A stretch of DNA of 64,000 nt from Trypanosoma brucei (GCA_000002445.1 CP000070.1:2048001-2112000), one strand, 5' to 3'; positions 7,929 through 39,533 are shown, numbered from the stretch's first letter. Program-made: numbers and translations. Notes: a model not told the origin generated them from the letters alone.

Positions 7929-7950
7929 ACCTACCTACCTACCTACCTAC

Positions 7951-8008: not shown

Positions 8009-8013
<5 letters not shown>

Positions 8014-11248: not shown

Positions 11249-11320
11249 TGGACGAGTAGGGGATCAAACCCTAGGCCTTCCGTATGCGAAACGGATGCTC
11301 TACCACTGAGCTACACGCCC
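11249..11320 (-). tRNA. tRNA-Ala (anticodon CGC), 72 nt without CCA, with two non-canonical positions (U6•U67 mismatch and U56 in the T-loop).
   Basis: The minus-strand sequence GGGCGTG-TA-GCTC-AGTGGTA-GAGC-A-TCCGT-TTCGCAT-ACGGA-AGGCC-TAGGG-TTTGATC-CCCTA-CTCGTCC-A folds as a cloverleaf. The A box TAGCTCAGTGG is canonical. The anticodon loop has U33-CGC-A37. The G3:U70 alanine identity pair and the A73 discriminator are present. The B box reads GGTTTGATCC rather than GGTTCGATCC. Confidence 0.7.
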
Positions 11321-15714: not shown

Positions 15715-18700
15715 TTACACTCCGACACTGCCGGGCCGTGTTCGCCGGAACTTTGGCTGCGACAGGCGCTCCGACAAGCAGCGCTGCGCCTCTACGGCTT
15801 TGGGCCCGTGCGGTATCTCTCGGATTAGGACATACGGCCTGCCTTGCTCGTCCAGCTTTACCTCCTCTAAAACCACTACGGAGGTTGACGATGTGTCCTC
15901 ATTCCTTTTCCCCTCCTGTGATATTGTCCGCCTTATACTCCGGCGGCGCAGTAGAGGGGAATCTCCTGTATCCTGCCGCCCTGAACAGCTAAACGCTCGT
16001 GTTGGCTGCCACGTTGATTTTCTTCTCGCCGACGTGGACGAAAGCTCCCTTAGTAGCAGCCTTGTCACATCTGCCGTGCGACGGGTGCCACCGCATGAGC
16101 TTACGCTCATACTGCGCGCAGGATCCGTTCTTTTCGATGGCGTTGGACCCGTTCGATCCCGCCGCCGGTCGTGGGCAGCGCTGAAGTTGGAAGCATGTGG
16201 TGCCCGAACATTCCTAACCGGAGTATTGGACCCGGCGCTTGATGAGCTGCGAGGCCTAAACGCCCAGCGGAGGTCTACTACGGGAATGGCAACGCCGCCC
16301 ACATTTCGCTCGGTGGTGGCTGCTGAGGGATCACTGCCTTCCGGCCCGGTCTTTCTAGAGGTTCCTGTCGGCGCGTCATCCATCCACGAGGCTGAGGTGG
16401 ACAGAGAGCCGGGCACGCGACCACTAATACGCTCATCGCTCACGTGGAGCTTTTCAGCACATTGTCTACGCGAGCGTTGCGATTCTTCCTTACTAGGTGA
16501 CCTGCAAGTTTCCCGTTGTGTCTCGAAAACTGACGGCTTGCACGGAGAAACGTTTGTGGAAAGTTTCTTGTCGGGGGGCACTGTGGAAGATATGCATCCA
16601 TCTGCGTCGATGACCCTCGCTGGTGCCTTCAGGTTACGGTCTCGTTTCAAACCGTCAGCATCTGATGGGGCTGCAGCCATGCCGGCTGGTGTTCTGCGTC
16701 TCTCCGCGCTACTATGACCACTCTCAGCTGCACGGGTTCCCCTTCCCTTGCGTGTCGAGTCCCGTGTCTCATCTTTGGGCTCGGCAGATAGTCTCCGTTC
16801 TTGCATTTGGCTCGCCTTTCGCTGGCTCAGATTTTTATGCAGGTCAGCTGCACCGTCGCCGCGGGCGTGGCTACGTCTACGTGCCATATGGCTGCACCTG
16901 TGCGTGCAGGTTGAGCGGCAACAGCAACAACTGGGTGAGCGGTCGAATGTGTGTGACGCGCGACGTGGGCGGTCTGCCCGGCCCGAATCACTGGAGCGAC
17001 ACCGGTCGCTCGTGTAGTTGTCTCTGGTGCTCATTGAGCGCGAGGACCTCCTTCTTCCACCACTGACGTACCCCATCGAAGACGGAGGAGGAGCACCGGG
17101 CAACAGGAAGTCCAAACAACCTCTGCCGTGCCTCCACGGGGACCTCCTTTCTTCCCCTTCGTGCATGTATCCGGTGCAACGGCCGCCGTGGAGTGCTCGC
17201 CTGGTCGGCGTCCTCATGCAGGTTAAGCGAGAGGACTTGTGCCTACGCGATTCTTCCATCTCTTGCTTAAGCAGAAAGTACAACTTGTACACGTCTGTTG
17301 CACGGAATATAGAGGATGGCGAAGAGGAACGATCGTTATGGGAGGCACCACGGCTACGCCCATGCGCTTTAGTCCTACGTTGCCCCCTGTCGGTGTAACC
17401 GTGCGTGTGGCCTGGCTGATGCCCACCATGCTTGTCTGGTGAAGTTCCCCCCTTGTCACATTTATCTCCCGAATATGATTCCACGGATGCATCGCTGTCG
17501 GTGTCACTGTCTTCTTCCTCTTCCCTCTCGTCTTCGCTGCTGTCGGGTTGCGGTGGCCTCCGTTTCTTATTCTGCCCTACACGGCAATCAACCAATTTGG
17601 AAGCTGAAGGCTTACGCCGTGGCGAAGGTTTCTTCACCGGACTCGAAGTGTCCTTTTCCCTTTCCTTAGTACGACCGCGACTGTGACGATCGTTGGCTCC
17701 TACTGGTGTGGCTCTTTTGCCCGAGCTGGACGGACTGCGATTTGGTTCCCTGCAGTTCGTTGCCGTGCTCTTTACTTCCCGTAGGACCTCCTCACCTCGT
17801 TCGGACGCTATTTCACCGTGGTGGGAACGTGGGGGATGCGTGGACCGCTTATCCTCTCCCCGCGTGCCGCCGTGTTCTCGCTCATCTGTGGCATGTTTTC
17901 TATTCGGTTCGGGACTCTTGGCCTTCTGAATTTCTCGGATTACCCTTCCCGCCCCCGCTCTAGAGGTGTTGACAGTGGGTGACACATCATTACTTACTGT
18001 CTCTTTCTTTTGAAAAGAAGTTACACCACTTCCCGTTGTGGATGCCCCTGTGCCAACACCACTTTTAACCACGGGCTGGGGTGGTGTTGGAGTTTCTTTG
18101 GGGGTGACGGCAGGGGAGGGGATGCGTTCCTTAGTAGGCTGAGTTTCTTCGTGCTTCGTTTTCATTGGGGCGGTGCCCTTTACTGGCGCCGCATGATTTG
18201 CGAAAGGTGCGGGGGTTTCCAAACTTTTGGCCTCAGCTGGAGCTTCTTTGACAACAGGTTCAACATTATCAGCACGTCTCGGTGCCTGCGTTGCGCTACT
18301 TTCCTGATTTCGACCAGTCATACCGCGGCGATCGTCTGACTTTTTTACTTTCTCCGTGGTCGTCGGGATCTCTACTGTTGCCCGCTTCTTGGCCTTCGCG
18401 TCTACCTCCTCGGAGTCCGAATCTGAATCGGAGTTACGGGGGCGGGGCACCGGCATGGACATGATGGGTTTCAGCTGCGCGTTGCGGTTGCGCTGATTAC
18501 CAATACCAACAGCACTGAGTCCGTCACTGCTGCTGCTGTCATCATCTAAAGCTCTTGTTGTAGATAAAGAGGCTGTCGCTCCCTCATCCTTCTGCCTCCT
18601 TTTGTTCGTTTGGTTTTTCTCGTGAGAGGCGGACTGGATCTCCCGGGAGGAAACGGGGTTGGATCTTCGTTTCCCACTGGAACAAGGTGTGTCGGCTGCC

Positions 18701-19671
18701 GGCAGTGTCCTGCTCTGCGTCATGTCAGCAGTATGACGCAAAGGCGATGCCCCACCCGTGCCACCGCTTCCACTTTGCATGACCCTTTGCCTAAAGGGTG
18801 TTGCATTAGCAGATTGAGAGTGTTTCGTAGGATCGACATAACTTGTTCCTGGTGTGGCGTTCGCCAGCATGTTTGAGCGGAACCGCTGCTCGGGGTCCGC
18901 TACAGGCTGTTGTAGCATCGTGTTGTGATTTCGTGCCGCCGGCGCTGATGCCTCTTCTTGTTGCTGCTGTTGCTCCGCATTCCCCTTTTTGTTTCCCTTC
19001 TTGAACACATTAAATATCCCCTTCACGGATCCCCATACTCCCTTTGAACTTGACTTCTTTGAAGCGGATGATTCTGTTGGAGCAGACTCCTGCTCCACTT
19101 TGTCTTCGGTGGTATTTGTGGTGGATGGGGGTGGTGCAACGGGACCGTGAGCAGCGGATCCCTGCTGGGGTTGTAAAGGCATAGTTTGACGCTGGTTGTT
19201 TATGTAAGGGTACAAATGCGTGTTCTGGTGCAGTGGAGGCTGCGAAGCAGGAATCATACCACCTGGGTGCATCAAAATGCCGCTCCTGGAAAGAGGTGCC
19301 GGAGCCCCCGGGTTGTAAGGTTGGACCTGAGACGGGTCCTGCCTGAAAGTCATTGGTCGCATTTGGGGTTGACAGAAGCGTGGGTCCATTCCCTCAGCAA
19401 CTCTAAGTGGGGATTGCTGACTAACGAGCCTTGGGTCTCCTCGCGACAAGTGCCGGACGTTTGGGGCCATTCCCCCGGGACCAACTAACATATAATTCCC
19501 TGGCGGTGGTTGCCCTGGTGGTGCCTGACCAGCGGCCAACCCACCCCGCGGTTGCGCATTCGCTGTTCCATACCCGTGCTGCATCTGCACGGGCACACTT
19601 CCTGGGGGAGCGGAGCCCAACATGTCGGTAAGTGACAGCTCCTTATCCCTTTCCGCCTTCTTTTTTCCCAT
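15715..19671 (-). CDS. Large low-complexity hypothetical protein (1318 aa). The N-terminus is P/Q/G-rich, the body is S/R/P/T-rich with RS-like stretches, and there is a Cys-rich segment.
   Basis: A single 3.96-kb ORF on the same strand as its neighbours. It contains RS-like runs (RRRSSRSMSTRDNYTSDRCRSSDSGRADRPRR) and a CCCCRSTCTHRCSH Cys cluster. No recognisable catalytic motif. Confidence 0.5.
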   Translation of the reverse strand: MGKKKAERDKELSLTDMLGSAPPGSVPVQMQHGYGTANAQPRGGLAAGQAPPGQPPPGNYMLVGPGGMAPNVRHLSRGDPRLVSQQSPLRVAEGMDPRFCQPQMRPMTFRQDPSQVQPYNPGAPAPLSRSGILMHPGGMIPASQPPLHQNTHLYPYINNQRQTMPLQPQQGSAAHGPVAPPPSTTNTTEDKVEQESAPTESSASKKSSSKGVWGSVKGIFNVFKKGNKKGNAEQQQQQEEASAPAARNHNTMLQQPVADPEQRFRSNMLANATPGTSYVDPTKHSQSANATPFRQRVMQSGSGGTGGASPLRHTADMTQSRTLPAADTPCSSGKRRSNPVSSREIQSASHEKNQTNKRRQKDEGATASLSTTRALDDDSSSSDGLSAVGIGNQRNRNAQLKPIMSMPVPRPRNSDSDSDSEEVDAKAKKRATVEIPTTTEKVKKSDDRRGMTGRNQESSATQAPRRADNVEPVVKEAPAEAKSLETPAPFANHAAPVKGTAPMKTKHEETQPTKERIPSPAVTPKETPTPPQPVVKSGVGTGASTTGSGVTSFQKKETVSNDVSPTVNTSRAGAGRVIREIQKAKSPEPNRKHATDEREHGGTRGEDKRSTHPPRSHHGEIASERGEEVLREVKSTATNCREPNRSPSSSGKRATPVGANDRHSRGRTKEREKDTSSPVKKPSPRRKPSASKLVDCRVGQNKKRRPPQPDSSEDEREEEEDSDTDSDASVESYSGDKCDKGGTSPDKHGGHQPGHTHGYTDRGQRRTKAHGRSRGASHNDRSSSPSSIFRATDVYKLYFLLKQEMEESRRHKSSRLTCMRTPTRRALHGGRCTGYMHEGEERRSPWRHGRGCLDFLLPGAPPPSSMGYVSGGRRRSSRSMSTRDNYTSDRCRSSDSGRADRPRRASHTFDRSPSCCCCRSTCTHRCSHMARRRSHARGDGAADLHKNLSQRKASQMQERRLSAEPKDETRDSTRKGRGTRAAESGHSSAERRRTPAGMAAAPSDADGLKRDRNLKAPARVIDADGCISSTVPPDKKLSTNVSPCKPSVFETQRETCRSPSKEESQRSRRQCAEKLHVSDERISGRVPGSLSTSASWMDDAPTGTSRKTGPEGSDPSAATTERNVGGVAIPVVDLRWAFRPRSSSSAGSNTPVRNVRAPHASNFSAAHDRRRDRTGPTPSKRTDPARSMSVSSCGGTRRTADVTRLLLRELSSTSARRKSTWQPTRAFSCSGRQDTGDSPLLRRRSIRRTISQEGKRNEDTSSTSVVVLEEVKLDEQGRPYVLIREIPHGPKAVEAQRCLSERLSQPKFRRTRPGSVGV

Positions 19672-20787: not shown

Positions 20788-23700
20788 TCAAGCAGCACGC
20801 ATAGATTTGGGGAATCTGAAGGCCGGACCACCGTGGGTCTCGGTAGGGTACGGGTGGTAATATTCACCGGGACCCACGCCATTGCCTGCTTCAAACTCAG
20901 CGAAGCGATCGGCAGAAGCGAATGTGAAGGCAAGTACGGTGGGTCTTGCGTCAACGGGGTGGTGATATTCACCGGGACCGGGTGCGTCCTCCTGGGCAGA
21001 TTCCAGCGTCATAGAGCGTGGCCCCCTGCCGAAGGTAAATGCGGGGCCGGGTTTTAAGACGACTGGGCCACCTGTTAGATATGCCCCCGGTCCTGGAACA
21101 TCTTCTGCTCTGCACTGCACCTCCCGCTCCGCTGCCCCAAACGGTACGGCCTTTTGGTTTAGTGTGGAAGGGATAACGTACGCTGCAGGCCCGGGTGTTG
21201 CGTTCACCCGCACTTCAAATACGGCTGTCGAATCAACGGTGGGCAATGGACCGAAGGAAACTGCACGAGTTGTTTCGGTAGGTCGTGGACAATAGGCACC
21301 GGGGCCAGGGACATCTTCCGTTTGGCGGCCATCGCCGTACGTTGGTTTCCCTTTCAGAGTGAAGGCGGGACCTGAATGGCATTGCTGCATGTATCGATCC
21401 GTGTCGTAACTTCCGGGCCCAGGTAAACCATCACTGTTCTCGGCAGCGCCCGATGGCTTCCCCTTCACCGTAAAAGCTGGTCCCGGTTTAAACTGTTCTG
21501 CGTAGCTGCTTACGTTGTAGCTTCCGGGACCGGGGACGTCGGCGTCGACCCCGTCGCTGGTCACTTGTTTTCCTTTGAGCGTGAAGGCAGGGCCCGACTG
21601 AAATTGTTCCGTATAGCGGCTAACGTCGTAGCTACCGGGGCCAGGTACATCGGCGCTACCTTCAACTTGGGATGCTTTTCCTTTCAAAGTAAAGGCTGGG
21701 CCCGCCTGACACAGTTCCATGTAGCGATTGATATCGTAACTGCCAGGTCCCGGAGCATCAATACCATTCTCGCCATTATACGTGGCCTTGCCCTTTAGGG
21801 TAAACGACGGCCCTGCGTGGTGTTGTTCGAGGTAACGATTCGGATCGTAGCTCCCCGGACCTGGAGCGTCAGCTTCGTTGTCGTTTTGCGCTGATTTTCC
21901 CTTCAAAGTAAATGAAACCCCCGACTGACACTGCTTCAAATATCGATTCACATCGTAGCTTCCCGGCCCAGGAACGTCGCCATCGGCACTGTTACTGTTA
22001 AACGCATCCCTCCCTCGGAGAGTGAAGGCAGGACCCGCTTGACACCGCTCCAAGTACTGACTGGCATCATAGCTTCCAGGACCAGGGATATCAGGCCCCT
22101 TCTGCCCAGTGTCGCTTGGTTTCCCCCTTAACGTGAATGAAGGACCTGCCTGAGACTGTTCCATACAGCGATTGATATCATAACTGCCAGGTCCCGGAGC
22201 ATCAATACCATTCTCGCCATTATACGTGGCCTTGCCCTTTAGGGTAAACGACGGCCCTGCGTGGTGTTGTTCGAGGTAACGATTCGGATCGTAGCTCCCC
22301 GGACCTGGAACGTCAGCTTCGCTGTCATTGCCATTACACGCACCTTTTCCTCGAAGTGTGAACGCGGGTCCTGACTGAAACTGCTCCAAGTATCGGTTCG
22401 CATCATAACTACCGGGGCCGGGAATGCCAGCACTGTTTTCGTCAACGCAGGTTGGTTTTCCCTTCAACGAGAAGGCGGGGCCCATTTGGCACCTTTCCAA
22501 GTAGCTACTCGCGTCATAGCTTCCGGGACCGGGGACGTCAGCATCATGTCCGCCGACGGGGGCTGCTTTCCCTCTCAATGAGACCGACGGGCCGGCTTGG
22601 CATTGTTCGAGATAGCGATTTGGGTCGTAGCTTCCCGGACCAGGAACATCACCATTGCCACTGCTGCCGTTAAATGTACTTTTCCCTCGAAGAGTAAACG
22701 CACGACCCGCCCTACTTTCATCTATGTAGCGACTTGCATCGTAGCTCCCAGGACCAGGAAGGTCACCACCGTTTTCATTCTGTCCTGGTTTACTTTTAAG
22801 AGTGAATGCGGGCCCAGCTTGATATGCGTTCAGGTAACGGTTCGTATCGTAGCTACCGGGCCCCGGTACATCGGCATCTACCGTGGGGGCTTTCATGCGC
22901 TCTTCAGCACCAAAGGAATAGGTGTTGCCCGCTGTGGTGTTCCAGGTAGAGGGGATATCATAATCACCAGGTCCAGGACGCGATGAAGCATCATTCAGCT
23001 CTGCCGGCGAATGGCGCGGTGCCTGTGGGAACGACACACCATCCTTCGTACCTCTGGCCTCTGCGGGACTGTACGACGCCGGACCTGGACTCTCTCCCAC
23101 TGCGCCACCGCTGAGCCCAGGGAAGCGCTCGCTCGTGAAACGCATCGCTACGCCACCGTCCACAATACTCCCAAGCCCTCCACTGCTGACCTCGTAGTGA
23201 CCTGGTCCTGGCTGTTCTCTGAGATCGTTATTGTTGGCACCAACCCCTGTGGCAACACGGGGCGCTCGACCAATAAAGGGCCCTGAGGTCCGTTGCGCCG
23301 ATTGAATGCTGTATGCACCGGGCCCAGGTCCTTCGGTTTGGGCAGCTTGGCCATCTGGGAACCGCGCAGCCTTGACAAATGAAGTGGCCCCGCTCCCACC
23401 ATCGACCGCAGGAAATGCGGGCTGCACCGAGTACGTGCCAGGGCCTGGAAGTTCGGCTTTTTGCATATCAACCGCCATGCGATCCTGGGCAGCAGCCCGT
23501 CCGATGGAATACGCTATCCCCTCACGGTTTTCCACCCTTAGGTCGTAAGAACCTGGCCCTGGGGCATCTTCAATGCCACCCGTGTTTGCTACGTCCCTTT
23601 GTGCGGTGCCAAAAATAACGGAAGGTGTATCCGTCGGCAGCGCAGGGTTGTAGTGTCCAGGTCCCGGATGGTTTTGTCCACTGAGGTTGTTCAAACCTCC

Positions 23701-26700
23701 GCTTGTTTGGCGCGGCCCAATACCAAAGAGAGCTGCTGTTGCCGTTAGTGAGGGTTCTTGTGGGCTATATGTTCCTGGTCCGGGCCCATCCGTTCCTAGA
23801 GTGAGCGAAGCGTTTCTTCCTCCCATGGGGAAAGAGTATGCTTGGGAAGAGTCCCATTGCGGATGGTGGGGCATGTACTGCCCGGGTCCAGGGGCTTCGT
23901 CCTCCCCTCTCTCGGTTGCAAAGCGAGGACTTATGGGAAAGGCGGAAACAACGGCTCGGCGATGAGATAAATCTTCCCCAGTGTAGTCGTACTGCCCAGG
24001 CCCAGGGACGTCGCTTCCCTCAAGACTGGGCGCCTCCCGGGTAGCTGTGGGGAAGCGATAGACAGGTGCCGTCGGTGACGTTGTACGCGACGCCCCAACA
24101 TTATACGTTCCTGGTCCCGGCCCTTCCTCATGGTTCAAAGAACCCAAGGCACGTGGTTCGACACCGAACCGTGTGCCTGTAGCTGTGAGTGTGGGGATGG
24201 TGACATCGTAGGCTCCGGGGCCGGGTGTGGTTCCATCGTTCTCGGTAGCATCCTGTGGCATGCGAGGTTCCACTCCAAAAGAGTAGGCTGCTCCACCTAC
24301 CTTGGTGCTTAGGTCCTCCGGATGATATTGGCCAGGCCCGGGAAGAAGTGCGTGTTCTCGTTCCTTCAGATCGAGGACACGTGGCCCCCTGCTGAACACA
24401 GGAACACCAGCAGCCGCTGTGAGGGTTCCACGATCTTCTATTGAATAGTATCCAGGTCCCGGAGTGACGTCGTTGTCACCACCTGCAGCAGCCCCCGCAA
24501 CATTGTCGAACCGGGGTGCTGTTGTGAAGGAGACCGGACCGACTGGTGACGCGCCTCCAGTGGTCGGGTCTAACGAATACGCTCCGGGTCCCGGGATGCT
24601 CCAACTGTCTTCATGAGACTGTAGACGAGGTGCCATGCCAATTATGGCGGAGCGCGCACAAGAGGCCTTGCTATCGTGGGGATTGTAGTGACCCGGACCA
24701 ACCGCCAACTCGCCGTGCCGCTCCTCCTGTATTCGTCCATCCGCGGCGCTACCGAACGTGGTGTGAAAGGTGTGCGGGACGGGAAGGATAACTTCGTATG
24801 ATCCTGGACCGACACCGGGTCGCATAAGCGCTTCACGCTCTTCTGGTGATGTCGGGTGTTGCGGCGACGAACCAAAGACTACACCTGGGATCGTGCGTCC
24901 ATGTGGGTCTTTTGGAGCATACGCCCCAGGACCAGGGACAGCCTCTGCGGGATCAGCCCGCTGGGACGGTTTGCCACAAGATATGCCGAAGTTCACGACA
25001 TTAGTTGGGGTTGGGCTCTGCCGAGTGTCATATGCTCCAGGACCCGGTACCTCATTAAGTGTATCGGCAGCAAACCTGGGACCGGCGCTCCACACTGCCC
25101 CCGATGCAGGACCTTTAGGCACTTGGGGATCGTATGAACCTGGTCCAATCCCGTCGTTGCCATCGTGGTTCCCCACGGAGTGGTCGATGGTTAAAAGGCG
25201 TGGCTCTGTGCCAAACACTGCCGCCCCCCTGTACTCCGGAGGTCTCTCTATTGTGTAGGCCCCTGGTCCTGGGACATCTTGACGATCTTTTTCCCCACCG
25301 CTAGTCTGAAACCTTGCAGCTTCACCAATCACAACGGCCCGGGTGTTCGGCATCGGATCTTGTGGATCGTATTCTCCGGGTCCGGGAACTGACACACTGG
25401 GCTCTGGGCCGTCAAGTTTCTGACCGATTGAAAAAGACGGGCTATTCTTCGGCATGGCGATCTCGTACGCACCCGGGCCTGGTTTTTTTGCAGCTTCATC
25501 CTCGTTGAATGGTAATTCTCGTGGGGCACTTCCGAAGACAGCGGCACGGCCCCTCGTTCCCACATCCCCACAATCAGCATCGTAGTGTCCTGGTCCGGGG
25601 GTGGCCACCACACCGGCAGCCCCTTCAGCACCCGGTTCGCTACTCTCCGCAAATCGCGGTGCGGCGGCATTTAATAGAGGCGACACGACCCGTGGCTCCT
25701 GTACAGTGGTAAGTGCTGTGTAAGTGCCTGGCCCCGGCACATCAGCACAGCAGTCGAAGCCAAGCGTTGATACTCGTTGTGCGGTACCCATGATGGCAGA
25801 CCGCACGGGACTGGTCTGTCTCTCTGTCTCGTAAGTTCCCGGTCCGGGGAGCGTCTCAGCAACTTTCGTCCCTTCGTGCAGCACACGCGGCGCTGTAGGG
25901 AATAAGGGCGCAGAGGAATGCGAATGTTTTAGCTCATATGTGGAAACACTGTACTCACCAGGTCCTGGGGTAGGATGGGGCTCGAGAGGTGCCGAGGGCG
26001 ACTCCGACACAAGCCACCGTGGACCGGTAGACATTTGTGGCAATTCGTAGTGGCCGGGACCAGGCGTTGTATCCACCCGCTCTGCTGGTCGGCGTCCCAT
26101 AAGGTAGGCTGGACCACTTTCCCTCCTGACGGGTTCATATGCCCCAGGTCCAGGTACTTCATGAGGGGAAGTGCGCTCCTTGCTCCACGGAGATCCACCA
26201 CGTCTTACGTTCGTTATCACGGCACTGCGACCACTGACGGCTGTGCACCTGTCGCTTGGCACAGAAGCGGTATCGTACGTGCCTGGACCTGGTACGTTCG
26301 CTGGTTCAGAAGGTGGTGAAGAAGTGAGTGGCACTCGTCCATAACGTAGTAACTTCGCACGACCAAATGAGAAAGCAGGAGGGCTCCTCCGCCGCGCGTC
26401 GGAGAGTGTCGCGGCTTCTGGGTGATATTCGCCAGGTCCTGGTATGAGCACCGCCTCCTTTGTGGGAAGTATAGAAAGCTGACGACGACTACTCGATAGG
26501 GTGCGGGCACTTTTCTTTGATGAGGTTTCTGTCATACTCTTTTCCTTGACGTCGTACGCTCCGGGCCCGGGAAAATTATTGACAGCATGCAACTTTCGTT
26601 CTGCCCGTCCAATTAGCACCCCCCCAGTGGCCGTTTTCCCGGGGGACAATGCAGACATACCTAATTCACCAGACACATCGTACGCCCCAGGACCCGGTGA

Positions 26701-27975
26701 CACCCCCGCCGAGGCACCATCAACTCGTTTTGTTGGTTTCAAGTATGAAGGCACGCTGCCATGTACGTCTGAGTCTCCCACTGCCCGCTGACCGCTTCGG
26801 ACTTCCTCCTCACTTCTGCCGCGCCTTCGTTGACTGGAGCGGTGCTTCGGATGTGTATTAGTGTCAGATGTGTCTACAGCGAAAATAGTGCACCGAGGTG
26901 AAATTCCGAATACGGCACCCCGATTGGAGAGCCGTCCTACAAGCCGCGGCGACACCACCGAGGGAGATTTCTGAAAACTATCATGTGCCTTTGTCGCACC
27001 GCTTTTTTTGTTGCTATTTTTCTTTGTGCTGCTGCCGCAAGGTTGAGCAGCCTCACTGCCGGAGTTGCTGCGGCTGCTGGTGTGATCGTCATTGTCCCCC
27101 TCTGTACACACTGTTCTCAGTGACTGACAAGGGCAGTCGGACGCGTGAGCCGCGGGATTCTTCGGTGCGTCGATATCAGGCATTTGCTTCCAATAACACT
27201 GACAGAGTATTTCCATTTGTCTCTTGAGTAGCTCATTCTTCTCCGCCTTCTGTTCCACCACCTCAACCCCCGTGTGATGTGGACCGCTTGTGTGACTTTT
27301 CTTACTATGCCCAGCTTCAGCACCCCGTCCGCGGTAGCAGTCCCCACTGTCGTTATTGCTGTCATCCGCAATGAAGTACGATCCGGGCCCTGGTGACGTA
27401 TCTTTTCGTATCGGTTCAGACATCCCCTTCCGACCACTTCCGAATGTAGATGGGGGGAAGCGATGCTGTGAACTTCTAGTGACCGTAGCAGCATTAACCA
27501 CCCGACCAGTCGGAGTGCTATAAGGTATCTTCACTTTCTCCGCTGATGCCTCATGAGGCCGACGGCACTTTGTAGCAGCCAACTGGGAGTTGTGACGACG
27601 AACGTGCTGGCATCCGGAAGACGCCTTGGGGCCCATGGACGTGCACTCGTGAGCACACGAGCACCCACATTGAGATGCGCAAGTCTCTGCAGCTTCGTCA
27701 GGCTCCTTCGTCTCCGTTGCTGGAAGTGCGCATCTTGTCTCTGGTTTTGGTGGTGCCGCTGATGCGCAAGAGGACGCAGCCTGCGTACCTCGCTGCTTGA
27801 AGTGGTGAGCTGCCCCGCGCGTGGGAGCCCCTTTTCTGGCTGCAGCCGCTTCCTTCTCCATTATCATATCGACGGAGGCCAAAATACTCGCGTACATAAC
27901 ATCTACTTGCGCTTGGACATCGTTCACATCGACATCATTCTCCTTCACTAGCGACAACTTACTGTACGTATCCAT
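20788..27975 (-). CDS. Giant sperm-tail PG-rich repeat (STPGR/SHIPPO-like) protein, 2395 aa. It has more than 60 PGPG[SAET]Y motifs and a regular C-terminal tandem array.
   Basis: 7.2-kb ORF. The motif [VIL]PGPG.Y recurs throughout (FPGPGAYDV, IPGPGEYHP, VPGPGTYDT ...). The C-terminal third has about 14 near-identical ~38-aa units: DVPGPGSYDxNRYLEQxQAGPAFTLKGK + ~10 aa. Confidence 0.8.
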   Translation of the reverse strand: MDTYSKLSLVKENDVDVNDVQAQVDVMYASILASVDMIMEKEAAAARKGAPTRGAAHHFKQRGTQAASSCASAAPPKPETRCALPATETKEPDEAAETCASQCGCSCAHECTSMGPKASSGCQHVRRHNSQLAATKCRRPHEASAEKVKIPYSTPTGRVVNAATVTRSSQHRFPPSTFGSGRKGMSEPIRKDTSPGPGSYFIADDSNNDSGDCYRGRGAEAGHSKKSHTSGPHHTGVEVVEQKAEKNELLKRQMEILCQCYWKQMPDIDAPKNPAAHASDCPCQSLRTVCTEGDNDDHTSSRSNSGSEAAQPCGSSTKKNSNKKSGATKAHDSFQKSPSVVSPRLVGRLSNRGAVFGISPRCTIFAVDTSDTNTHPKHRSSQRRRGRSEEEVRSGQRAVGDSDVHGSVPSYLKPTKRVDGASAGVSPGPGAYDVSGELGMSALSPGKTATGGVLIGRAERKLHAVNNFPGPGAYDVKEKSMTETSSKKSARTLSSSRRQLSILPTKEAVLIPGPGEYHPEAATLSDARRRSPPAFSFGRAKLLRYGRVPLTSSPPSEPANVPGPGTYDTASVPSDRCTAVSGRSAVITNVRRGGSPWSKERTSPHEVPGPGAYEPVRRESGPAYLMGRRPAERVDTTPGPGHYELPQMSTGPRWLVSESPSAPLEPHPTPGPGEYSVSTYELKHSHSSAPLFPTAPRVLHEGTKVAETLPGPGTYETERQTSPVRSAIMGTAQRVSTLGFDCCADVPGPGTYTALTTVQEPRVVSPLLNAAAPRFAESSEPGAEGAAGVVATPGPGHYDADCGDVGTRGRAAVFGSAPRELPFNEDEAAKKPGPGAYEIAMPKNSPSFSIGQKLDGPEPSVSVPGPGEYDPQDPMPNTRAVVIGEAARFQTSGGEKDRQDVPGPGAYTIERPPEYRGAAVFGTEPRLLTIDHSVGNHDGNDGIGPGSYDPQVPKGPASGAVWSAGPRFAADTLNEVPGPGAYDTRQSPTPTNVVNFGISCGKPSQRADPAEAVPGPGAYAPKDPHGRTIPGVVFGSSPQHPTSPEEREALMRPGVGPGSYEVILPVPHTFHTTFGSAADGRIQEERHGELAVGPGHYNPHDSKASCARSAIIGMAPRLQSHEDSWSIPGPGAYSLDPTTGGASPVGPVSFTTAPRFDNVAGAAAGGDNDVTPGPGYYSIEDRGTLTAAAGVPVFSRGPRVLDLKEREHALLPGPGQYHPEDLSTKVGGAAYSFGVEPRMPQDATENDGTTPGPGAYDVTIPTLTATGTRFGVEPRALGSLNHEEGPGPGTYNVGASRTTSPTAPVYRFPTATREAPSLEGSDVPGPGQYDYTGEDLSHRRAVVSAFPISPRFATERGEDEAPGPGQYMPHHPQWDSSQAYSFPMGGRNASLTLGTDGPGPGTYSPQEPSLTATAALFGIGPRQTSGGLNNLSGQNHPGPGHYNPALPTDTPSVIFGTAQRDVANTGGIEDAPGPGSYDLRVENREGIAYSIGRAAAQDRMAVDMQKAELPGPGTYSVQPAFPAVDGGSGATSFVKAARFPDGQAAQTEGPGPGAYSIQSAQRTSGPFIGRAPRVATGVGANNNDLREQPGPGHYEVSSGGLGSIVDGGVAMRFTSERFPGLSGGAVGESPGPASYSPAEARGTKDGVSFPQAPRHSPAELNDASSRPGPGDYDIPSTWNTTAGNTYSFGAEERMKAPTVDADVPGPGSYDTNRYLNAYQAGPAFTLKSKPGQNENGGDLPGPGSYDASRYIDESRAGRAFTLRGKSTFNGSSGNGDVPGPGSYDPNRYLEQCQAGPSVSLRGKAAPVGGHDADVPGPGSYDASSYLERCQMGPAFSLKGKPTCVDENSAGIPGPGSYDANRYLEQFQSGPAFTLRGKGACNGNDSEADVPGPGSYDPNRYLEQHHAGPSFTLKGKATYNGENGIDAPGPGSYDINRCMEQSQAGPSFTLRGKPSDTGQKGPDIPGPGSYDASQYLERCQAGPAFTLRGRDAFNSNSADGDVPGPGSYDVNRYLKQCQSGVSFTLKGKSAQNDNEADAPGPGSYDPNRYLEQHHAGPSFTLKGKATYNGENGIDAPGPGSYDINRYMELCQAGPAFTLKGKASQVEGSADVPGPGSYDVSRYTEQFQSGPAFTLKGKQVTSDGVDADVPGPGSYNVSSYAEQFKPGPAFTVKGKPSGAAENSDGLPGPGSYDTDRYMQQCHSGPAFTLKGKPTYGDGRQTEDVPGPGAYCPRPTETTRAVSFGPLPTVDSTAVFEVRVNATPGPAAYVIPSTLNQKAVPFGAAEREVQCRAEDVPGPGAYLTGGPVVLKPGPAFTFGRGPRSMTLESAQEDAPGPGEYHHPVDARPTVLAFTFASADRFAEFEAGNGVGPGEYYHPYPTETHGGPAFRFPKSMRAA
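21310..22880 (-). repeat. Intragenic tandem array of ~114-bp units (about 14 copies) encoding the STPGR repeats. It includes a ~98%-identical ~150-bp duplication (≈21721-21880 vs ≈22161-22320).
   Basis: Nucleotide strings such as cgattgatatc[g/a]taactgccaggtcccggagcatcaataccattctcgccattatacgtggccttgccctttagggtaaacgacggccctgcgtggtgttgttcgaggtaacgattcggatcgtagctccccggacctgga recur about 440 bp apart. The encoded peptide repeat is seen directly. Confidence 0.8.
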
Positions 27976-34571: not shown

Positions 34572-35472
34572 TCGAAGAGATGAGTGACGGGTTTAGAGAC
34601 TAAGGGCACAGCAAGTTTTCAGGCCACAAATCCCTTCTCTTCGCCTACACTGCGAAATGATTTATTGAGGGGTCTTGCGACTGCACTCCACCTACACAGA
34701 TAGCCCTGTGACTTCCTCCTTATATATATATATATATGTATTTTAGTACGCGTGCGTGTCGTATTACTCTGCTGCTGTCTTCCTCTCTTCTTCGTGTAGT
34801 TGATGATTAAAACTACTATGTTCCTGTTGCCGTTGGCCCTACAGGGTCGTTACTTGCTTAAGCCCCTAGTTACTCGCTCACTTCCTACTTCTGGTGCCCT
34901 CCTCACTTTTCTGTTTCTCTTTCTAGGGACTCGCACCGTACCGCTTATGACAAAAAAAAACAAAACAAAACAATCCCAAGGGAATCGAGGAAATAAACGT
35001 ACAGGAGAGTAGGTAGTATGTGTGCGTCATTGGAAATGAAGCTACAAACGTGTGATCACAAATATTTCACCAAAAGCGGCTGTGGTGATTGGAGAGGACT
35101 TTTGCTGCGTATAAAATGTTTGCACGTCTGATTATGGTCACGACGTAGTAGTCACGGAAAACGATGTTAATTGCCACCCCCGTAGGCTTTACTCCCCCAT
35201 GCAACAGGGGCGCGGGTGTCGTGCCGGTGACTCGTAACAAACTTGACACGCGGATTCAGTCGATATACGTGCGACTAGTAAGGCTTATGCGGGAGATGGT
35301 TCACTATGCAATTTATACCACTGTACTGATGCATGTATTACCGCGGTTACTATTCTTCAGCTCCGCGTAGTCGCCTTTGCGGCCGCACTCAGTCAGTAGC
35401 AAAGATATGCAGGTAACACACTCTCCGCATGTGGGTTTGAAATCCCGCTTTTCCCTTTGCAAGATCCAACCA

Positions 35473-36450
35473 TCAGAAGCGATTCCATCGGACGAGACTT
35501 CCCGTGCTAAATCTCGGGCTCCGCACGGGCGGTTTCCCCTGCTCATCTGCTTTCTTATACCCCACACTGATAATAACGGGCACGGTGTAGCGCTCCGGCA
35601 AGCCCACAACCTCCCTAACTTTCGCTTCATCGAAACCTTCAAGAATTGCCGTATCCAATCCAGCAGCTGTGGCGGCGTAAATAAATGTTGTGGCGGGGAT
35701 CATTGCCTGCTTCCACGCGTAACCTTGCATTGTTGTGGGCACTGACAGCAATGGCGTCCCGGTGGCGTTGCTATACCAGGAGGAGATGCATGACTTTGCC
35801 TTTGCCATTGACCCAAACGGACCCCCGTGGAGATGATAGTACACCAACCGCAAATATGCAGCACCGTAGAGTGGATGATAGTAACCACTGTTGAGACCTA
35901 GTTCCAGTGCTGCAGGGGCCCTCCACTCGGGCTCCATGTCACCAGCAAACACTACAGTGACAGGGGCTTCACGGGGTTGCGGCTGGTCGAGCGCTGCATG
36001 CGATAAAGCACCCCGTTGCGATGTCTCATGTACGACAATGGCAACCCATGGCTGCAGGTTGAAAGCGGTGGGTGCCCGCGTAGTGGCCTCCAGCAGGCGC
36101 GCGATAAGAGTGTGGTCGACGGGACGTGAGCTGTCGAACCGCTTGCTGGAGTGACGTCTTTCCACAACACGTATAAATGCATCAAGTGACTTGCGCGATG
36201 CCTTTGAATAATATGTGGGTGGGATCCTATCTGGTTCCCTCGGCACCTCCTGTGCGGTGGCGGCGATGCTGGACCTCAGGAAAGTGAAAAACCGGGATAT
36301 GCCCGAGCCCCACGTCTCGTAGGGTGAGGTGCTATTCTGTGAATTAGTGGCAGACAAGGCGGCACCTGCATTCCACTTCCAGTATGAACGGAGGGATTTT
36401 ATGACGCCCTGCCAACGGCAGCGGCTCACGTTCATCTCGAGAGGGGACAA
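35473..36450 (-). CDS. Bacterial-type nitroreductase family protein (type I NTR-like), 325 aa, with a basic N-terminal presequence.
   Basis: The nitroreductase-fold signature RRHSSKRFDSSRPVDHTLIARLLEATTRAPTAFNLQPWVAIVVHETSQRGALS matches the R.S.R.F...P(V/I)....l..il.aa..APS..N.QPW.f.vv pattern. The N-terminus MNVSRCRWQGVIKSLRSYWKW is Arg/Trp-rich and resembles a mitochondrial targeting peptide. Confidence 0.75.
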   Translation of the reverse strand: MSPLEMNVSRCRWQGVIKSLRSYWKWNAGAALSATNSQNSTSPYETWGSGISRFFTFLRSSIAATAQEVPREPDRIPPTYYSKASRKSLDAFIRVVERRHSSKRFDSSRPVDHTLIARLLEATTRAPTAFNLQPWVAIVVHETSQRGALSHAALDQPQPREAPVTVVFAGDMEPEWRAPAALELGLNSGYYHPLYGAAYLRLVYYHLHGGPFGSMAKAKSCISSWYSNATGTPLLSVPTTMQGYAWKQAMIPATTFIYAATAAGLDTAILEGFDEAKVREVVGLPERYTVPVIISVGYKKADEQGKPPVRSPRFSTGSLVRWNRF

Positions 36451-37379
36451 AGCCTCTCTCCTATGCTACCTCCTTTTTCCTTCCTTTTAGTGGTTCTATT
36501 CTTTCTTGATGATTATCGTAGAGCGTACAAAGCAGCAAGAGCGGGGGTAAGAAGGAAAGGTCCAACGGGTCGCATCGCAACTTCAGCTGCTGATATATGA
36601 ATCCCGTGTAACACACCAGCACGCTTGAAATAATGGAAAATGCGCAGGGGAACGGAAGTGTCCGATAACAAGCAACGTTATCGCTATAATCAAAGTACGA
36701 ATGAAGGGGTGAGACGGCAAAAAGGATACACAGGGATAGCGACACGTGATTCCCCCCCAAAAAAAAAGAAAAGGGAAAACACCGAAAATATCGTAACATC
36801 TACCTTTGGCTCCTTATTAATCCCTTTTCTCTTTTTGTACACTGCGTACTTTCACCTCGGTGCAATTTTTGCGCTCACCCCTGTACACTGTTGTCCCTTC
36901 CTCAAAAACAGCAAAAGAGAAACAACGCGTCAATAAATGCCCCCACGTTTCAATAAAGTGGGAATAAGGTGAGGTTAACGTACATACACATGACAATACA
37001 TTACAGACATTTACATTCTTCATAAACGCCCTGTATTCAACGGCACATTGATGAGTCAACAAAAAGACTCCAACTGCGGTACAGGTCCTTACGCGACAGC
37101 CATAAAGGAATGCAACGAACACCACAAGTAACACACCACCACTGACCTCTAAAAAAGGGGGGGAAGGGGAAGGAATGTAACACAAGCAAGGAAAAAACTC
37201 GTGCTTGTGATGCAGTAGACAATGCGTGAGAAGCGACTCTGAGGGGAGGGAACGGAAAGGGTGGGGAATGCTAAGAGACAAACAACAGTATATTACAACC
37301 GTTCTCTCAACCAATAAAGGCAATGGCACTCACAACGACGATTGGCTGAAACAACCTGAAGTCTATTCGTCGCTGCAGC

Positions 37380-39533
37380 TTACTCCTTGAGGCCCCGGGC
37401 TAACATAGGATGCTGTCCAGAGAAGAAGACGACCGATCTCCTGTCCGGTTTGGGCCGTCCGTAGAAACCAATGGATTCACAGCGGTGGCTCGTGGCTTTG
37501 CAGCCCTCGTACACTGTTCGACCGGAGGGACCGCTGCCAGCATATCCACCAGCTGATGGCGTTGCGCAGTCCCTCCCGCTGTGTGGCCTAATCGTGGCTC
37601 TCGATGTGTGTGACCACTCTGGCCCACTTCCCTTCTTCTCCTTGAGGGGCAACCGTCCAGGGCGTCCACGGGAAACACTGCTTTTACCAGTGGTAAGCCG
37701 GCACGGTTCCATTTCGTAGCCTGCTTCGTTTGTGAGTTGTTCATGCTTGCAGTGGTAGTGCAACACATTGGCATAAGGGACGATATCAGCTCGAGCGTCA
37801 CACCAGCAAGCGCGCAGGCGGCATGGCGGCCCAGTAACAGTCTTCCATATGGTCTTCGAACGGGGGGCCTCGCTGAGCGGCGCGAGAACGAGGCGATCAA
37901 AACCATTCGTTAACTCCTTCCTAGGTAGTACACTACTCTTGCTGTTCGCTGTGGTTCGTCCCGTTTCTTCCATTCGATGCTCCCCACTGGCTGGGCTTTT
38001 GTCTCTTCTTGCCTCCGTGTTGGAGAGCATGGAATGAGACGCCGATGAGCCACCTTCCACTGGACTTAACAGCAATCCTGGAAAGAAGGTGGCACTTTGT
38101 CGCTTGCGCTCTGCATAAGGGGGCATCGGCCGGAGACAACTCAGAGGTGCTGCTACGGGGGCGACAGAACCGTTTCTTGAGGCGTCCTTACCGCGCAGTG
38201 GGGGACGAAAGAAACCAAACCCTCCGTCTCTGTTGCCCGCTCCCGTTTCGATTTCCTCTTGCTTCTCTTCTCCTTCTGTCCCCTGCTCCCGTTCTCCATC
38301 TTCATCTCGATCTTCCTCTTCTTGTGGTCCCTGTGTCCCATTGTCACTCTTACTCTTGTCAGCACTGTCACATTCCTCCTGGTGTGATAAATCCGTTGCT
38401 TCCCCTCCGCATGTATCACACGACGCATCGCGGTAGCGCCGTGCAACCTCTAGCATCTCGTCGGTGTTTTTTGCCTCTTGATAAGCCCTCTCCCGTTCCT
38501 CCCGCAGCTCATCTACATAACGAGCACACCGCGGCTTCAGTATAGCCTCCACTTCTTGCACAAGGTCGGTTGGAAAAGGTGGGCGGCCGGCTAGGTCATG
38601 GCACAGCATTTCATTGCGAAGCAACGCGCGCGCGTGGCCGGCCGGATCCTCGGCCTTATCTGGCACCGCTTCCACTGGCTTCAATTCTTTGAGTCGGGCG
38701 AAGGTATTCATGTCATACGGCCCATCAAACATAACTACGGCAAGTTGCCTGTTAACACGTAGAACGTCAATCAGCTGTTGCAAGAATCCGCCAGTAAGGT
38801 AATTGCAATCCAGGTTGAGCTGGCGGAGGCGAGTGTTCACACGAAGGCCACGAAGCAGCGGCTCCACATCATCATCGTAGAGCTCATTGTTGTACAGCGA
38901 CAGGGCGCGAAGGGGTGGGTCCGTCTCAAGGAACTCTGCAAGTCGCTCGCAACCCACCCGACCAGCGCGGTTCCCAGCAAAGTTCAGAGACAACAGGTTA
39001 GGAGGAAGAAAACCACCGGGGAAACCATTGTCATCATGCGCGCCGTTATGTGGGGCTTTCCCGAGGAGCGCCTCAATAGAGACGTGTGTGAGGGCGTTGT
39101 AGGAAATGTTAAGCGAACGCAAACCCGGGCTATTGGCAAGCGTCTGCAGTACCGCTTCGTGCCCAGAGATAAGTCCCGCATCGCCCATATAATGATTGGG
39201 AATGTGGACCTCTTCTAATGGCTTTGCAGTGGTATCGGTAAGGAAGCTTGGGGGAAGGAAACGCAAACTTCCCCTGTACACACCACTCCCCAGCAGCGTG
39301 CACGACCCCTTGCTGACCGGTCGACATTTTGTTTCTTCCCATTGCGTTGGTGTGCCACTGTTCGCTACGGTTGGAAGGGACCCTTCAAATTTTACCGCTC
39401 CCTGTGAAGACCGTAGCTCAGAGCAGGATTGAAGCTTTCTCAAAGTAGCAAGTAGCTCCTCATAATTTGTGCATACAAACACATGCTCTTCACCTACCTT
39501 GCCCAGTAATTCACGGCTCTGTCCAATACCCAT
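37380..39533 (-). CDS. RNI-like (ribonuclease-inhibitor type) leucine-rich repeat protein, 717 aa, with an acidic E/D-rich C-terminal half.
   Basis: There are ~28-aa LRRs of the RNI class (LRALSLYNNELYDDDVEPLLRGLRVNTRLRQLNLDCNYLTGGFLQQLIDVL, LRSLNISYNALTHVSIEALLG). An acidic region follows, with a CDTCGGE Cys pair. Confidence 0.65.
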   Translation of the reverse strand: MGIGQSRELLGKVGEEHVFVCTNYEELLATLRKLQSCSELRSSQGAVKFEGSLPTVANSGTPTQWEETKCRPVSKGSCTLLGSGVYRGSLRFLPPSFLTDTTAKPLEEVHIPNHYMGDAGLISGHEAVLQTLANSPGLRSLNISYNALTHVSIEALLGKAPHNGAHDDNGFPGGFLPPNLLSLNFAGNRAGRVGCERLAEFLETDPPLRALSLYNNELYDDDVEPLLRGLRVNTRLRQLNLDCNYLTGGFLQQLIDVLRVNRQLAVVMFDGPYDMNTFARLKELKPVEAVPDKAEDPAGHARALLRNEMLCHDLAGRPPFPTDLVQEVEAILKPRCARYVDELREERERAYQEAKNTDEMLEVARRYRDASCDTCGGEATDLSHQEECDSADKSKSDNGTQGPQEEEDRDEDGEREQGTEGEEKQEEIETGAGNRDGGFGFFRPPLRGKDASRNGSVAPVAAPLSCLRPMPPYAERKRQSATFFPGLLLSPVEGGSSASHSMLSNTEARRDKSPASGEHRMEETGRTTANSKSSVLPRKELTNGFDRLVLAPLSEAPRSKTIWKTVTGPPCRLRACWCDARADIVPYANVLHYHCKHEQLTNEAGYEMEPCRLTTGKSSVSRGRPGRLPLKEKKGSGPEWSHTSRATIRPHSGRDCATPSAGGYAGSGPSGRTVYEGCKATSHRCESIGFYGRPKPDRRSVVFFSGQHPMLARGLKE

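What the first reader, a model, noticed from the sequence alone, without database searches (positions are those of the whole stretch)
35473..36450. Bacterial-type nitroreductase in a eukaryotic gene cluster, a candidate type I NTR (nitro-drug activating enzyme)
The ORF carries the near-canonical nitroreductase-fold N-terminal signature (RRHSSKRFD...APTAFNLQPWVAIVV). It is preceded by an Arg/Trp-rich presequence compatible with mitochondrial import. Trypanosomatids possess a single bacterial-like type I nitroreductase that activates nifurtimox, benznidazole and fexinidazole, and loss of it confers drug resistance. If this is that orthologue, the locus is pharmacologically important. The gene is also a classic candidate for ancient horizontal acquisition from bacteria.
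Basis: partly seen in the sequence, partly recalled or inferred. Interest (0 to 1): 0.5.

Follow-up and report, generated by a model that had tools for sequence, protein, structure and literature searches.

The report
Known Trypanosoma brucei nitroreductase gene (TbNTR)

Summary
The ORF is real and the reading is correct. The true coding sequence is 35473..36435 (-), 320 aa from the first ATG.

Identity:
- The protein is 100% identical over its full length to XP_846343.1/Q57XU3, "nitroreductase, putative", T. brucei TREU927.
- Four published TbNTR knockout primers match the window exactly and abut the ATG and the stop codon.
- Eight published SNP coordinates place the window at Tb927_07_v4 2,048,001-2,112,000.
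- The gene is therefore Tb927.7.7230 (TbNTR).

Family:
- It matches Pfam PF00881 (E 2.7e-25).
- It keeps the FMN-contact residues R94, S96, K98, Q151, G267 and F268.
- The catalytic domain folds confidently (pLDDT >90) onto NfsB/NOX-type nitroreductases.
- It is not an NfsB or NfsA equivalog.

N-terminus and origin:
- An 85-residue basic, Trp-rich extension (+5 charge, no acidic residue in the first 30) fits the published mitochondrial location.
- Bacterial ancestry is plausible but old and unresolved. The best bacterial relatives are at most about 42% identical, and mitochondrion-bearing protists such as Naegleria carry equally close copies.

Verdict: already known; low novelty.

The parts
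35473..36435 (-). TbNTR (Tb927.7.7230) coding sequence, 320 codons plus the TGA stop at 35473..35475.
   Evidence: ORF. First ATG at 36435. 100% identity and coverage to XP_846343.1. Knockout primers abut both ends. Published SNP codons D261, D69 and I57 map correctly.
36436..36450 (-). 15 nt between the table-11 TTG and the real ATG. This is 5' UTR, not coding.
   Evidence: The published 5'UTR targeting fragment ends at 36436. The annotated protein is 320 aa. A 325-aa version exists only as an unnamed machine-called protein in Logan assemblies.
36181..36435 (-). N-terminal extension, residues 1-85, absent from bacterial nitroreductases. It includes the mitochondrial targeting region.
   Evidence: Residues 1-30 have K+R = 5 and D+E = 0. 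The AF2 model shows helix 4-29 and a disordered stretch 30-63. Bacterial homologues start at the RRxxxxF motif. Mitochondrial location is published (Wilkinson 2008, as cited in PMC5656836 and PMC5452488).
36349..36426 (-). Predicted basic, Trp-rich helix, residues 4-29. It contains the motif GVIKSLRSYWKWN, which recurs across trypanosomatid NTRs.
   Evidence: AF2 secondary structure. N-termini of the orthologues listed. The hydrophobic moment of 0.40 is not above shuffles.
35557..36162 (-). Nitroreductase (PF00881) catalytic domain, residues 92-293 in 320-aa numbering.
   Evidence: Pfam hit at residues 97-298 of the 325-aa translation. AF2 pLDDT is above 90 from about residue 80 to 320. Foldseek finds YdfN, NOX and NfsB structures with probability 1.00.
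36142..36156 (-). R94-H-S96-S-K98, the FMN phosphate-binding motif. It aligns with R10-H-S12-T-K14 of E. coli NfsB.
   Evidence: BLASTP alignment with genuine MG1655 NfsB. Residues mapped from the published T. rangeli list. R94 is invariant in 38 homologues.
35983..35985 (-). Q151, an invariant flavin-contacting glutamine.
   Evidence: Invariant column. Corresponds to T. rangeli Q131.
35629..35640 (-). E266-G267-F268-D269 loop, which contacts the flavin ring. It aligns with E165-G166-F167-D168 of NfsB.
   Evidence: Sequence read directly. BLASTP alignment. G267 is invariant. Maps to T. rangeli G247/F248.
35512..35514 (-). R308, an invariant C-terminal arginine. Its role as a partner of the FMN phosphate is inferred.
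   Evidence: Invariant in 38 homologues. The role is inferred by analogy with K205/R207 of NfsB (own knowledge) and was not tested.
36436..36903 (-). 5' flank and UTR used as the published TbNTR targeting fragment. It holds two polypyrimidine tracts (36759..36779 and about 36541..36560), each followed by an AG (36685 and 36506), which are candidate trans-splice acceptors.
   Evidence: Exact primer matches. Tract scan. Splice-site use is inferred and was not tested.
34998..35472 (-). 3' flank and UTR used as the published TbNTR targeting fragment.
   Evidence: Exact primer matches at 35447..35472 and 34998..35022.

Best explanation
The ORF is Tb927.7.7230, the single-copy Trypanosoma brucei type I nitroreductase gene (TbNTR), on chromosome 7 inside a long one-directional polycistronic gene array.

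Shown here:
- It encodes a 320-aa protein with an 85-residue basic N-terminal extension followed by an FMN-type nitroreductase-fold domain.
- The domain keeps the FMN-contact residues.

Taken from the literature:
- The protein is imported into the single mitochondrion and binds FMN.
- It uses NADH for oxygen-insensitive two-electron reductions of quinones and nitroheterocycles.
- It converts nifurtimox to a toxic open-chain nitrile and benznidazole to glyoxal-forming intermediates, and it activates fexinidazole.
- Losing one allele or halving expression gives about 2-fold cross-resistance.
- The gene is essential.

Inferred: its physiological role is probably a mitochondrial NADH:ubiquinone-type oxidoreductase.
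For: Identity:
- 100% identity and coverage to XP_846343.1/Q57XU3, on a 2.2-Mb contig.
- Four NTR knockout primers from Wyllie et al. (PMC4743696 supplement) match exactly. They end at 36436 and start at 35472, flush with the ATG and the stop.
- Eight SNP positions on Tb927_07_v4 map to the right codons with a single offset of 2,048,000.
- The published V106I variant fits V106.
- PMC5656836 names Tb927.7.7230 as TbNTR.

Family:
- PF00881, E 2.7e-25.
- PDB sequence hits to NOX 1nox (1.9e-19) and to NfsB-type enzymes.
- AF2 model with pLDDT 85.6, and above 90 in the domain.
- Foldseek to 3bem, 1nox, 2b67 and NfsB, with TM 0.75-0.88 normalised by target length.
- RHSSK aligns with RHSTK and EGFD with EGFD of genuine E. 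coli NfsB.
- R94, S96, K98, Q151, G267 and F268 correspond to the published FMN residues.

Orthologues are found in all trypanosomatids sampled, and the kinetoplastid clade has 99% bootstrap support.

Eukaryotic setting:
- All 15 large ORFs are on one strand. They include kinesin, ankyrin, COG4, a DEAD helicase and a cyclin.
- The window is 99.1% identical over 21 kb to a second T. brucei-group assembly.

Function comes from papers: PMC3075655, PMC4743696, PMC4045206, PMC5452488.
Against: Nothing contradicts the identification. Limits:
- Enzyme activity, FMN binding, localisation and essentiality were not tested here and rest on the literature.
- The primary paper (Wilkinson 2008, PMC2278226) is not in the held library, so it is cited only through later papers.
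- The amphipathicity of the N-terminal helix is not statistically distinctive: 857 of 2000 shuffles reach the same hydrophobic moment.
- The protein fails the equivalog cutoffs for NfsB (52.8 against 227 bits) and NfsA (19.5 against 223 bits). 'Bacterial-like' therefore means superfamily and fold, not orthology to the classic E. coli enzymes.
Confidence: 0.98

Rival explanations
1. The protein belongs to another branch of the nitroreductase-fold superfamily with a different chemistry, such as BluB, FbiB C-terminal domain, iodotyrosine deiodinase or RutE malonic semialdehyde reductase, and is not a nitro/quinone reductase.
For: Weak NCBIfam hits to RutE (55.7 bits), BluB (43.8 bits) and FbiB (17-19 bits). 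Weak PDB hits to BluB and iodotyrosine deiodinase.
Against: All of these lie far below their curated cutoffs (152, 150 and 250-304 bits). The best sequence and fold matches are NOX-, YdfN- and NfsB-type NAD(P)H:flavin/nitro reductases. Published enzymology shows NADH-dependent nifurtimox and benznidazole reduction by recombinant TbNTR.
Confidence: 0.01
2. The ORF is bacterial contamination or a very recent bacterial insertion in the assembly, not a resident eukaryotic gene.
For: It belongs to a mostly bacterial protein family, and it can be read as an ORF with a TTG start under the bacterial code.
Against: It is embedded co-directionally between eukaryotic genes. The same locus is 99.1% identical over 21 kb in another T. 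brucei-group assembly. Orthologues exist in all trypanosomatids sampled. It carries an 85-aa eukaryote-type extension. The best bacterial homologue is only about 38-42% identical.
Confidence: 0.005
3. On origin only: the gene was not acquired by trypanosomatids from bacteria. It belongs to an older eukaryotic, mitochondrion-targeted nitroreductase lineage shared with Heterolobosea and other protists. That lineage was either gained once early or derives from the mitochondrial ancestor.
For: Naegleria gruberi (39% identity, with an N-terminal extension) and several unnamed proteins are as close as any bacterial protein. The unnamed proteins lie in eukaryote-like gene contexts: XRN_N, Pkinase, EAP30, CLC+CBS and ankyrin. 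In the NJ tree they lie between the kinetoplastids and the bacteria.
Against: The split of eukaryote-like against bacterial sequences has only 55% bootstrap support. The likely bacterial P0038, with overlapping tightly packed genes, groups with the Naegleria set at 82%, and Pythium falls among the bacteria. The tree is distance-based with sparse sampling, and the taxonomic assignment of the unnamed contigs is inferred from neighbouring genes only.
Confidence: 0.35

Closest known systems
TbNTR, Trypanosoma brucei type I nitroreductase (Tb927.7.7230; XP_846343.1; UniProt Q57XU3)
   Same: Identical protein of 320 aa, with the same chromosomal position and flanks.
   Different: Nothing.
TcNTR (T. 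cruzi) and LmNTR/LdNTR (Leishmania) type I nitroreductases
   Same: Orthologues with 54% (T. cruzi) and 57-58% (Leishmania) identity. They share the domain, the FMN residues, the ending ...SPRF..[IV]RW.K[FY] and an N-terminal extension.
   Different: The N-terminal extensions differ in length and sequence. Leishmania has an additional roughly 43-residue MLRRS.RLLL... leader ahead of the conserved W-N motif. S96 is T and F268 is I in L. major.
Thermus thermophilus NADH oxidase (PDB 1NOX), B. subtilis YdfN (3BEM) and S. pneumoniae nitroreductase (2B67)
   Same: These are the closest solved structures by sequence (1nox, E 1.9e-19) and by fold (3bem TM 0.87, 1nox 0.78, 2b67 0.83, normalised by target length).
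   Different: Identity is only 21-26%. They have no N-terminal extension. TbNTR has about 30 extra residues in the central helical region, roughly residues 175-245, which HMMER leaves unaligned. The roughly 250-aa bacterial relatives and the protist homologues share this region.
E. coli NfsB (group B oxygen-insensitive nitroreductase)
   Same: Same fold. The RHS(S/T)K and EGFD FMN motifs align. 24% identity, E 3e-10.
   Different: TbNTR is not an equivalog: NF008275 scores 52.8 bits against a cutoff of 227. TbNTR uses NADH (literature). NfsB is cytosolic and lacks the extension.
E. coli NfsA (group A nitroreductase)
   Same: Same superfamily only.
   Different: There is no significant pairwise similarity: BLASTP E 0.12, and NF008033 scores 19.5 bits against 223.

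Membership tests
Nitroreductase superfamily (Pfam PF00881) | Sequence match above the curated gathering score. | tested here: met
   89.9 bits against a cutoff of 23.5, E 2.7e-25, covering profile positions 2-167 of 167.
Nitroreductase superfamily (Pfam PF00881) | Alpha+beta nitroreductase fold. | tested here: met
   The AF2 domain has pLDDT above 90. Foldseek gives 200 PDB hits at E<=0.001, and all 50 listed are nitroreductase-fold enzymes. TM normalised by target length is 0.75-0.88.
Nitroreductase superfamily (Pfam PF00881) | Conserved FMN-contact residues: the R-x-S-x-K/R phosphate motif, a Q/N at the flavin, and the E-G-F loop. | tested here: met
   R94, S96, K98, Q151, G267 and F268.
Nitroreductase superfamily (Pfam PF00881) | Homodimer with FMN bound at the interface. 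| not tested
   Only a monomer was modelled. FMN binding is reported in the literature.
Trypanosomatid type I NTR (TbNTR/TcNTR/LmNTR orthologue group) | Sequence identity or orthology with the characterised gene. | tested here: met
   100% identity to XP_846343.1. The next best hits are the NTRs of other trypanosomatids. The kinetoplastid clade has 99% bootstrap support.
Trypanosomatid type I NTR (TbNTR/TcNTR/LmNTR orthologue group) | Genomic locus Tb927.7.7230 on chromosome 7. | tested here: met
   Knockout primers and SNP coordinates from PMC4743696 map exactly. Neighbours fit the published order of 7190-7260.
Trypanosomatid type I NTR (TbNTR/TcNTR/LmNTR orthologue group) | N-terminal mitochondrial targeting extension and mitochondrial location. 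| tested here: inconclusive
   The extension is present, basic and free of acidic residues, and a helix is predicted. The hydrophobic moment is not above shuffles, and no targeting predictor was available. Localisation is published.
Trypanosomatid type I NTR (TbNTR/TcNTR/LmNTR orthologue group) | NADH-dependent, oxygen-insensitive two-electron reduction of nifurtimox and benznidazole, with gene dosage controlling drug sensitivity. | not testable with these tools
   Published for this gene: PMC3075655, PMC4743696, PMC5656836.
Trypanosomatid type I NTR (TbNTR/TcNTR/LmNTR orthologue group) | Single copy per haploid genome. | tested here: met
   There is no second copy in the window (tblastn). Only one T. 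brucei cluster appears among 139 homologues. The whole genome was not scanned; published Southern blot and WGS data agree.
NfsB equivalog (NCBIfam NF008275) | Score above the curated equivalog cutoff. | tested here: not met
   52.8 bits against 227. 24% identity to MG1655 NfsB.
NfsA equivalog (NCBIfam NF008033) | Score above the curated equivalog cutoff. | tested here: not met
   19.5 bits against 223. BLASTP E 0.12.

The most novel reading that the evidence does not exclude
Two modest readings remain open.

(a) The Trp-rich helix in the N-terminal extension may not be just a disposable import signal. In T. brucei it reads G10-VIKSLRSYWKWN-22. It recurs as GLWxS[LV]xxYWxW[NK] across Trypanosoma and as GFLATLRHLVAWN in Leishmania, where it lies behind a separate canonical leader. 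It could be a retained functional element, for example a membrane-surface anchor that positions the enzyme for ubiquinone reduction.

(b) The enzyme may belong to a wider lineage of mitochondrion-targeted nitroreductases shared with Naegleria and other free-living protists. In that case its acquisition predates trypanosomatids, and it is not 'trypanosome-specific'.
Probability: 0.25. Interest if true: 0.3.

Novelty: already known. Interest (0 to 1): 0.08.

Why it matters
The locus is pharmacologically important, but this is established knowledge. TbNTR is the activator of nifurtimox, benznidazole and fexinidazole, and its dosage is the main known determinant of nitro-drug cross-resistance in trypanosomes. 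The scan rediscovered it correctly from raw sequence, which validates the first-stage reading but adds no new biology.

Minor points of residual interest:
- The PDB copy searched holds no solved structure of any trypanosomatid NTR. The best sequence hit is T. thermophilus NOX.
- The physiological substrate and the evolutionary origin remain open.

Tried and rejected
- Wilkinson 2008 (PMC2278226) and Voak 2013 (PMC3789948) are not held. Their findings are cited through later papers.
- A Biopython bootstrap tree timed out. It was replaced by an own NJ implementation with 500 bootstraps.
- The search for related loci with the 38-sequence alignment failed because it had no conserved stretch. It was repeated with an 8-sequence alignment.
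- Cluster look-ups for the nearest non-kinetoplastid proteins returned no organism names. Their eukaryotic or bacterial nature was therefore judged only from neighbouring genes.
- The hydrophobic-moment test of the presequence helix was not significant.
- The literature search for a published HGT analysis of the trypanosome NTR found nothing specific.
- Considered and rejected: NfsA or NfsB orthology; BluB, FbiB, RutE or iodotyrosine deiodinase identity; contamination; a paralogue in the window.

Full report
**Observation.** A minus-strand ORF runs from 36450 to 35473. The ORF listing uses the bacterial code, so the ORF begins at a TTG and has 325 codons. The first ATG is 15 nt further in, at 36435, and gives 320 aa. 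The signal is far above chance. Pfam PF00881 (Nitroreductase) scores 89.9 bits against a gathering score of 23.5, E 2.7e-25, and covers the whole profile. Sixty distinct PDB sequences match, led by Thermus thermophilus NADH oxidase 1NOX (E 1.9e-19), a pneumococcal nitroreductase (2B67) and NfsB-type enzymes.

**Identity of the window and the gene.** The 320-aa protein is 100% identical over its full length to 'nitroreductase, putative [Trypanosoma brucei brucei TREU927]' (AAZ12784.1, XP_846343.1, UniProt Q57XU3), carried on a 2,205,233-bp contig. Near-identical members occur in T. b. gambiense and T. equiperdum. The supplement of Wyllie et al. (PMC4743696) gives two independent links.

- The four primers used to build the TbNTR single-knockout construct all match the window exactly and once each.
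  - The 5' flank runs 36903..36436 and ends one base before the ATG.
  - The 3' flank runs 35472..34998 and starts one base after the TGA.
- Eight SNP positions given on Tb927_07_v4 fall in exactly the stated codons of the window's ORFs when 2,048,000 is subtracted. They lie in Tb927.7.7200.7220.7230 and .7240. Three are in the NTR gene: D261, D69 and I57.

The window is therefore Tb927_07_v4 2,048,001-2,112,000 in chromosome orientation, and the ORF is Tb927.7.7230. PMC5656836 names that gene explicitly as the type I nitroreductase TbNTR. The published V106I variant also fits V106 of the 320-aa numbering. A second T. brucei-group assembly (GCA_003543875.1) is 99.1% identical over 21 kb around the gene, with an identical CDS.

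**Setting.** All 15 large ORFs of the window lie on the minus strand, as expected for a trypanosomatid polycistronic unit. They encode typical eukaryotic proteins:
- a dual-specificity phosphatase
- a cyclin
- an LRR protein
- a 2395-aa SHIPPO-repeat protein
- a DUF4139 protein
- an ankyrin-repeat protein
- the kinesin KIF9B
- a Surp-module protein
- COG4
- a DEAD-box helicase

There is no second nitroreductase in the window. Only one T. brucei cluster appears among the 139 database homologues. Contamination or a recent insertion is excluded.

**Anatomy of the protein.** Residues 1-85 form an extension that bacterial homologues lack. The first 30 residues hold 3 Arg, 2 Lys, 3 Trp and no acidic residue. 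AlphaFold2, run with a 38-sequence alignment, predicts a helix at residues 4-29 with moderate confidence and a disordered linker at 30-63. From about residue 80 to 320 it predicts a very confident (pLDDT >90) alpha+beta domain. Foldseek places that domain among solved nitroreductases: B. subtilis YdfN 3BEM, 1NOX, 2B67, and E. coli, Enterobacter and Vibrio NfsB. TM-scores are 0.75-0.88 normalised by target length.

Against genuine E. coli MG1655 NfsB, fetched from the genome record, the protein is 24% identical (E 3e-10). R94-H-S96-S-K98 aligns with R10-H-S12-T-K14, and E266-G-F-D269 aligns with E165-G-F-D168. The FMN-contact residues listed for the T. rangeli enzyme (R74, S76, R78, Q131, G247, F248; PMC5452488) map to R94, S96, K98, Q151, G267 and F268. 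R94, Q151, G267 and R308 are invariant across 38 homologues.

The protein is not an NfsB or NfsA equivalog. NF008275 scores 52.8 bits against a cutoff of 227, and NF008033 scores 19.5 against 223. BLASTP against NfsA is not significant. The central helical region, about residues 175-245, is roughly 30 residues longer than in 1NOX. It is shared with the protist homologues and the roughly 250-aa bacterial relatives.

**Mechanism.** The fold, the FMN motifs and the extension are shown here. The rest comes from the literature on this very gene.
- TbNTR is a mitochondrial, FMN-containing, NADH-dependent, oxygen-insensitive type I nitroreductase.
- It reduces quinones and nitroheterocycles by two-electron steps.
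- Nifurtimox is converted to an unsaturated open-chain nitrile, and benznidazole ultimately to glyoxal.
- Over-expression makes bloodstream T. brucei about 10-fold hypersensitive.
- Resistant lines selected in the laboratory lost one copy of the locus, or lost downstream sequence that halves its transcription.
- The gene is essential. Its physiological role is thought to be linked to ubiquinone.

Sources for these points are. The in-silico evidence for mitochondrial targeting is only 'compatible'. The helix's hydrophobic moment (0.40) is reached by 857 of 2000 shuffles, and no dedicated predictor was available.

**Origin.** The family is overwhelmingly bacterial, so a bacterial ancestry is reasonable, but the data here do not resolve it.
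- The best named bacterial or archaeal genome hits are a Bdellovibrionales MAG (37%) and a Methylomirabilota MAG (40%). Desulfobacterales and Acidobacteriota follow at about 30%.
- Unnamed proteins in bacterial-type gene contexts reach 38-42%.
- Equally close are Naegleria gruberi (39%) and several unnamed proteins that carry N-terminal extensions or lie in eukaryote-like gene contexts: XRN_N, a protein kinase, EAP30, a CLC channel and ankyrin.
- In a distance tree the kinetoplastid clade is solid (99%). The split of eukaryote-like from bacterial sequences has only 55% support. One probable bacterial protein groups with the Naegleria set, and Pythium falls among the bacteria.

Recent transfer is excluded. 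Whether there was one early acquisition, several acquisitions, or descent from the mitochondrial ancestor is open.

**Comparison with the known, and verdict.** This is not a relative of a known system but the known gene itself. Novelty is nil.

Residual curiosities:
- A Trp-rich motif in the N-terminal extension is conserved across trypanosomatids.
- Protist homologues outside Kinetoplastida exist.
- No solved trypanosomatid NTR structure is in the PDB copy searched.

Noticed in passing
window 36370..36408 (-), residues 10-22 of TbNTR; also P0002, P0004, P0006, P0007, P0010, P0013, P0016, P0028, P0030: The N-terminal extension is not uniformly variable. A Trp-rich motif recurs near the N-terminus of most Trypanosoma NTRs (T. 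brucei GVIKSLRSYWKWN, T. cruzi GLWESLFLYWRWN, T. rangeli GLWDSVQSYWHWK). In Leishmania it appears as GFLATLRHLVAWN about 45 residues in, behind a separate MLRRS.RLLL leader. Sequence conservation of this kind is unusual for a mere import signal.
   Followed up: partly
P0039 (Naegleria gruberi), P0040, P0042, P0047, P0050 (L089), P0036 (L002), P0037 (L003): Non-kinetoplastid eukaryotes carry homologues 34-43% identical to TbNTR. Several have presequence-like N-termini, and two (P0047, P0050) have long C-terminal extensions. This is at odds with the common description of the enzyme as trypanosomatid-specific among eukaryotes.
   Followed up: partly
window about 17,600 and about 56,500: The published start points of the hemizygous deletions in drug-resistant T. 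brucei lines map into this window. The nifurtimox-resistant lines start near chr7 2,065,600, inside the 1318-aa ORF 15715..19671 (Tb927.7.7190, 'partially lost'). The fexinidazole-resistant lines start near 2,104,500, inside the COG4 gene 55603..58674.
   Followed up: partly
window 11248..11320 (-): A tRNA-Ala(CGC) gene (Rfam 63.2 bits; ARAGORN) sits inside the RNA polymerase II polycistronic array, between the cyclin gene (8393..10567) and the LRR gene (12753..14963), on the same strand.
   Followed up: no
window 20788..27975 (-): A 2395-aa ORF (Tb927.7.7200 by SNP mapping) built largely of SHIPPO / sperm-tail PG-rich repeats (PF07004, E 3e-135). It is presumably a flagellar protein. Tandem Repeats Finder sees no DNA-level tandem array, so the repeats are diverged.
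   Followed up: no
window 7953..8013: An (AC)30 dinucleotide microsatellite lies in a low-GC intergenic stretch (GC 0.40 for 6001..8000).
   Followed up: no
window 37380..39533 (-): The 717-aa ORF immediately upstream of NTR (Tb927.7.7240, annotated as a leucine-rich repeat protein in the paper's table) gives no Pfam hit at E<=0.001. In the other T. brucei-group assembly the gene caller called only a 450-aa product at this place.
   Followed up: no
window 36541..36560 and 36759..36779 (-): Two polypyrimidine tracts lie upstream of the NTR ATG, each followed by an AG (36506 and 36685). They are candidate trans-splice acceptor sites that would give 5' UTRs of about 69 or about 248 nt.
   Followed up: no
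PDB search: No trypanosomatid NTR structure is present in the PDB copy searched. The closest solved sequence is T. thermophilus NOX (26% identity in the Foldseek alignment), although the enzyme is a drug-activation determinant.
   Followed up: no
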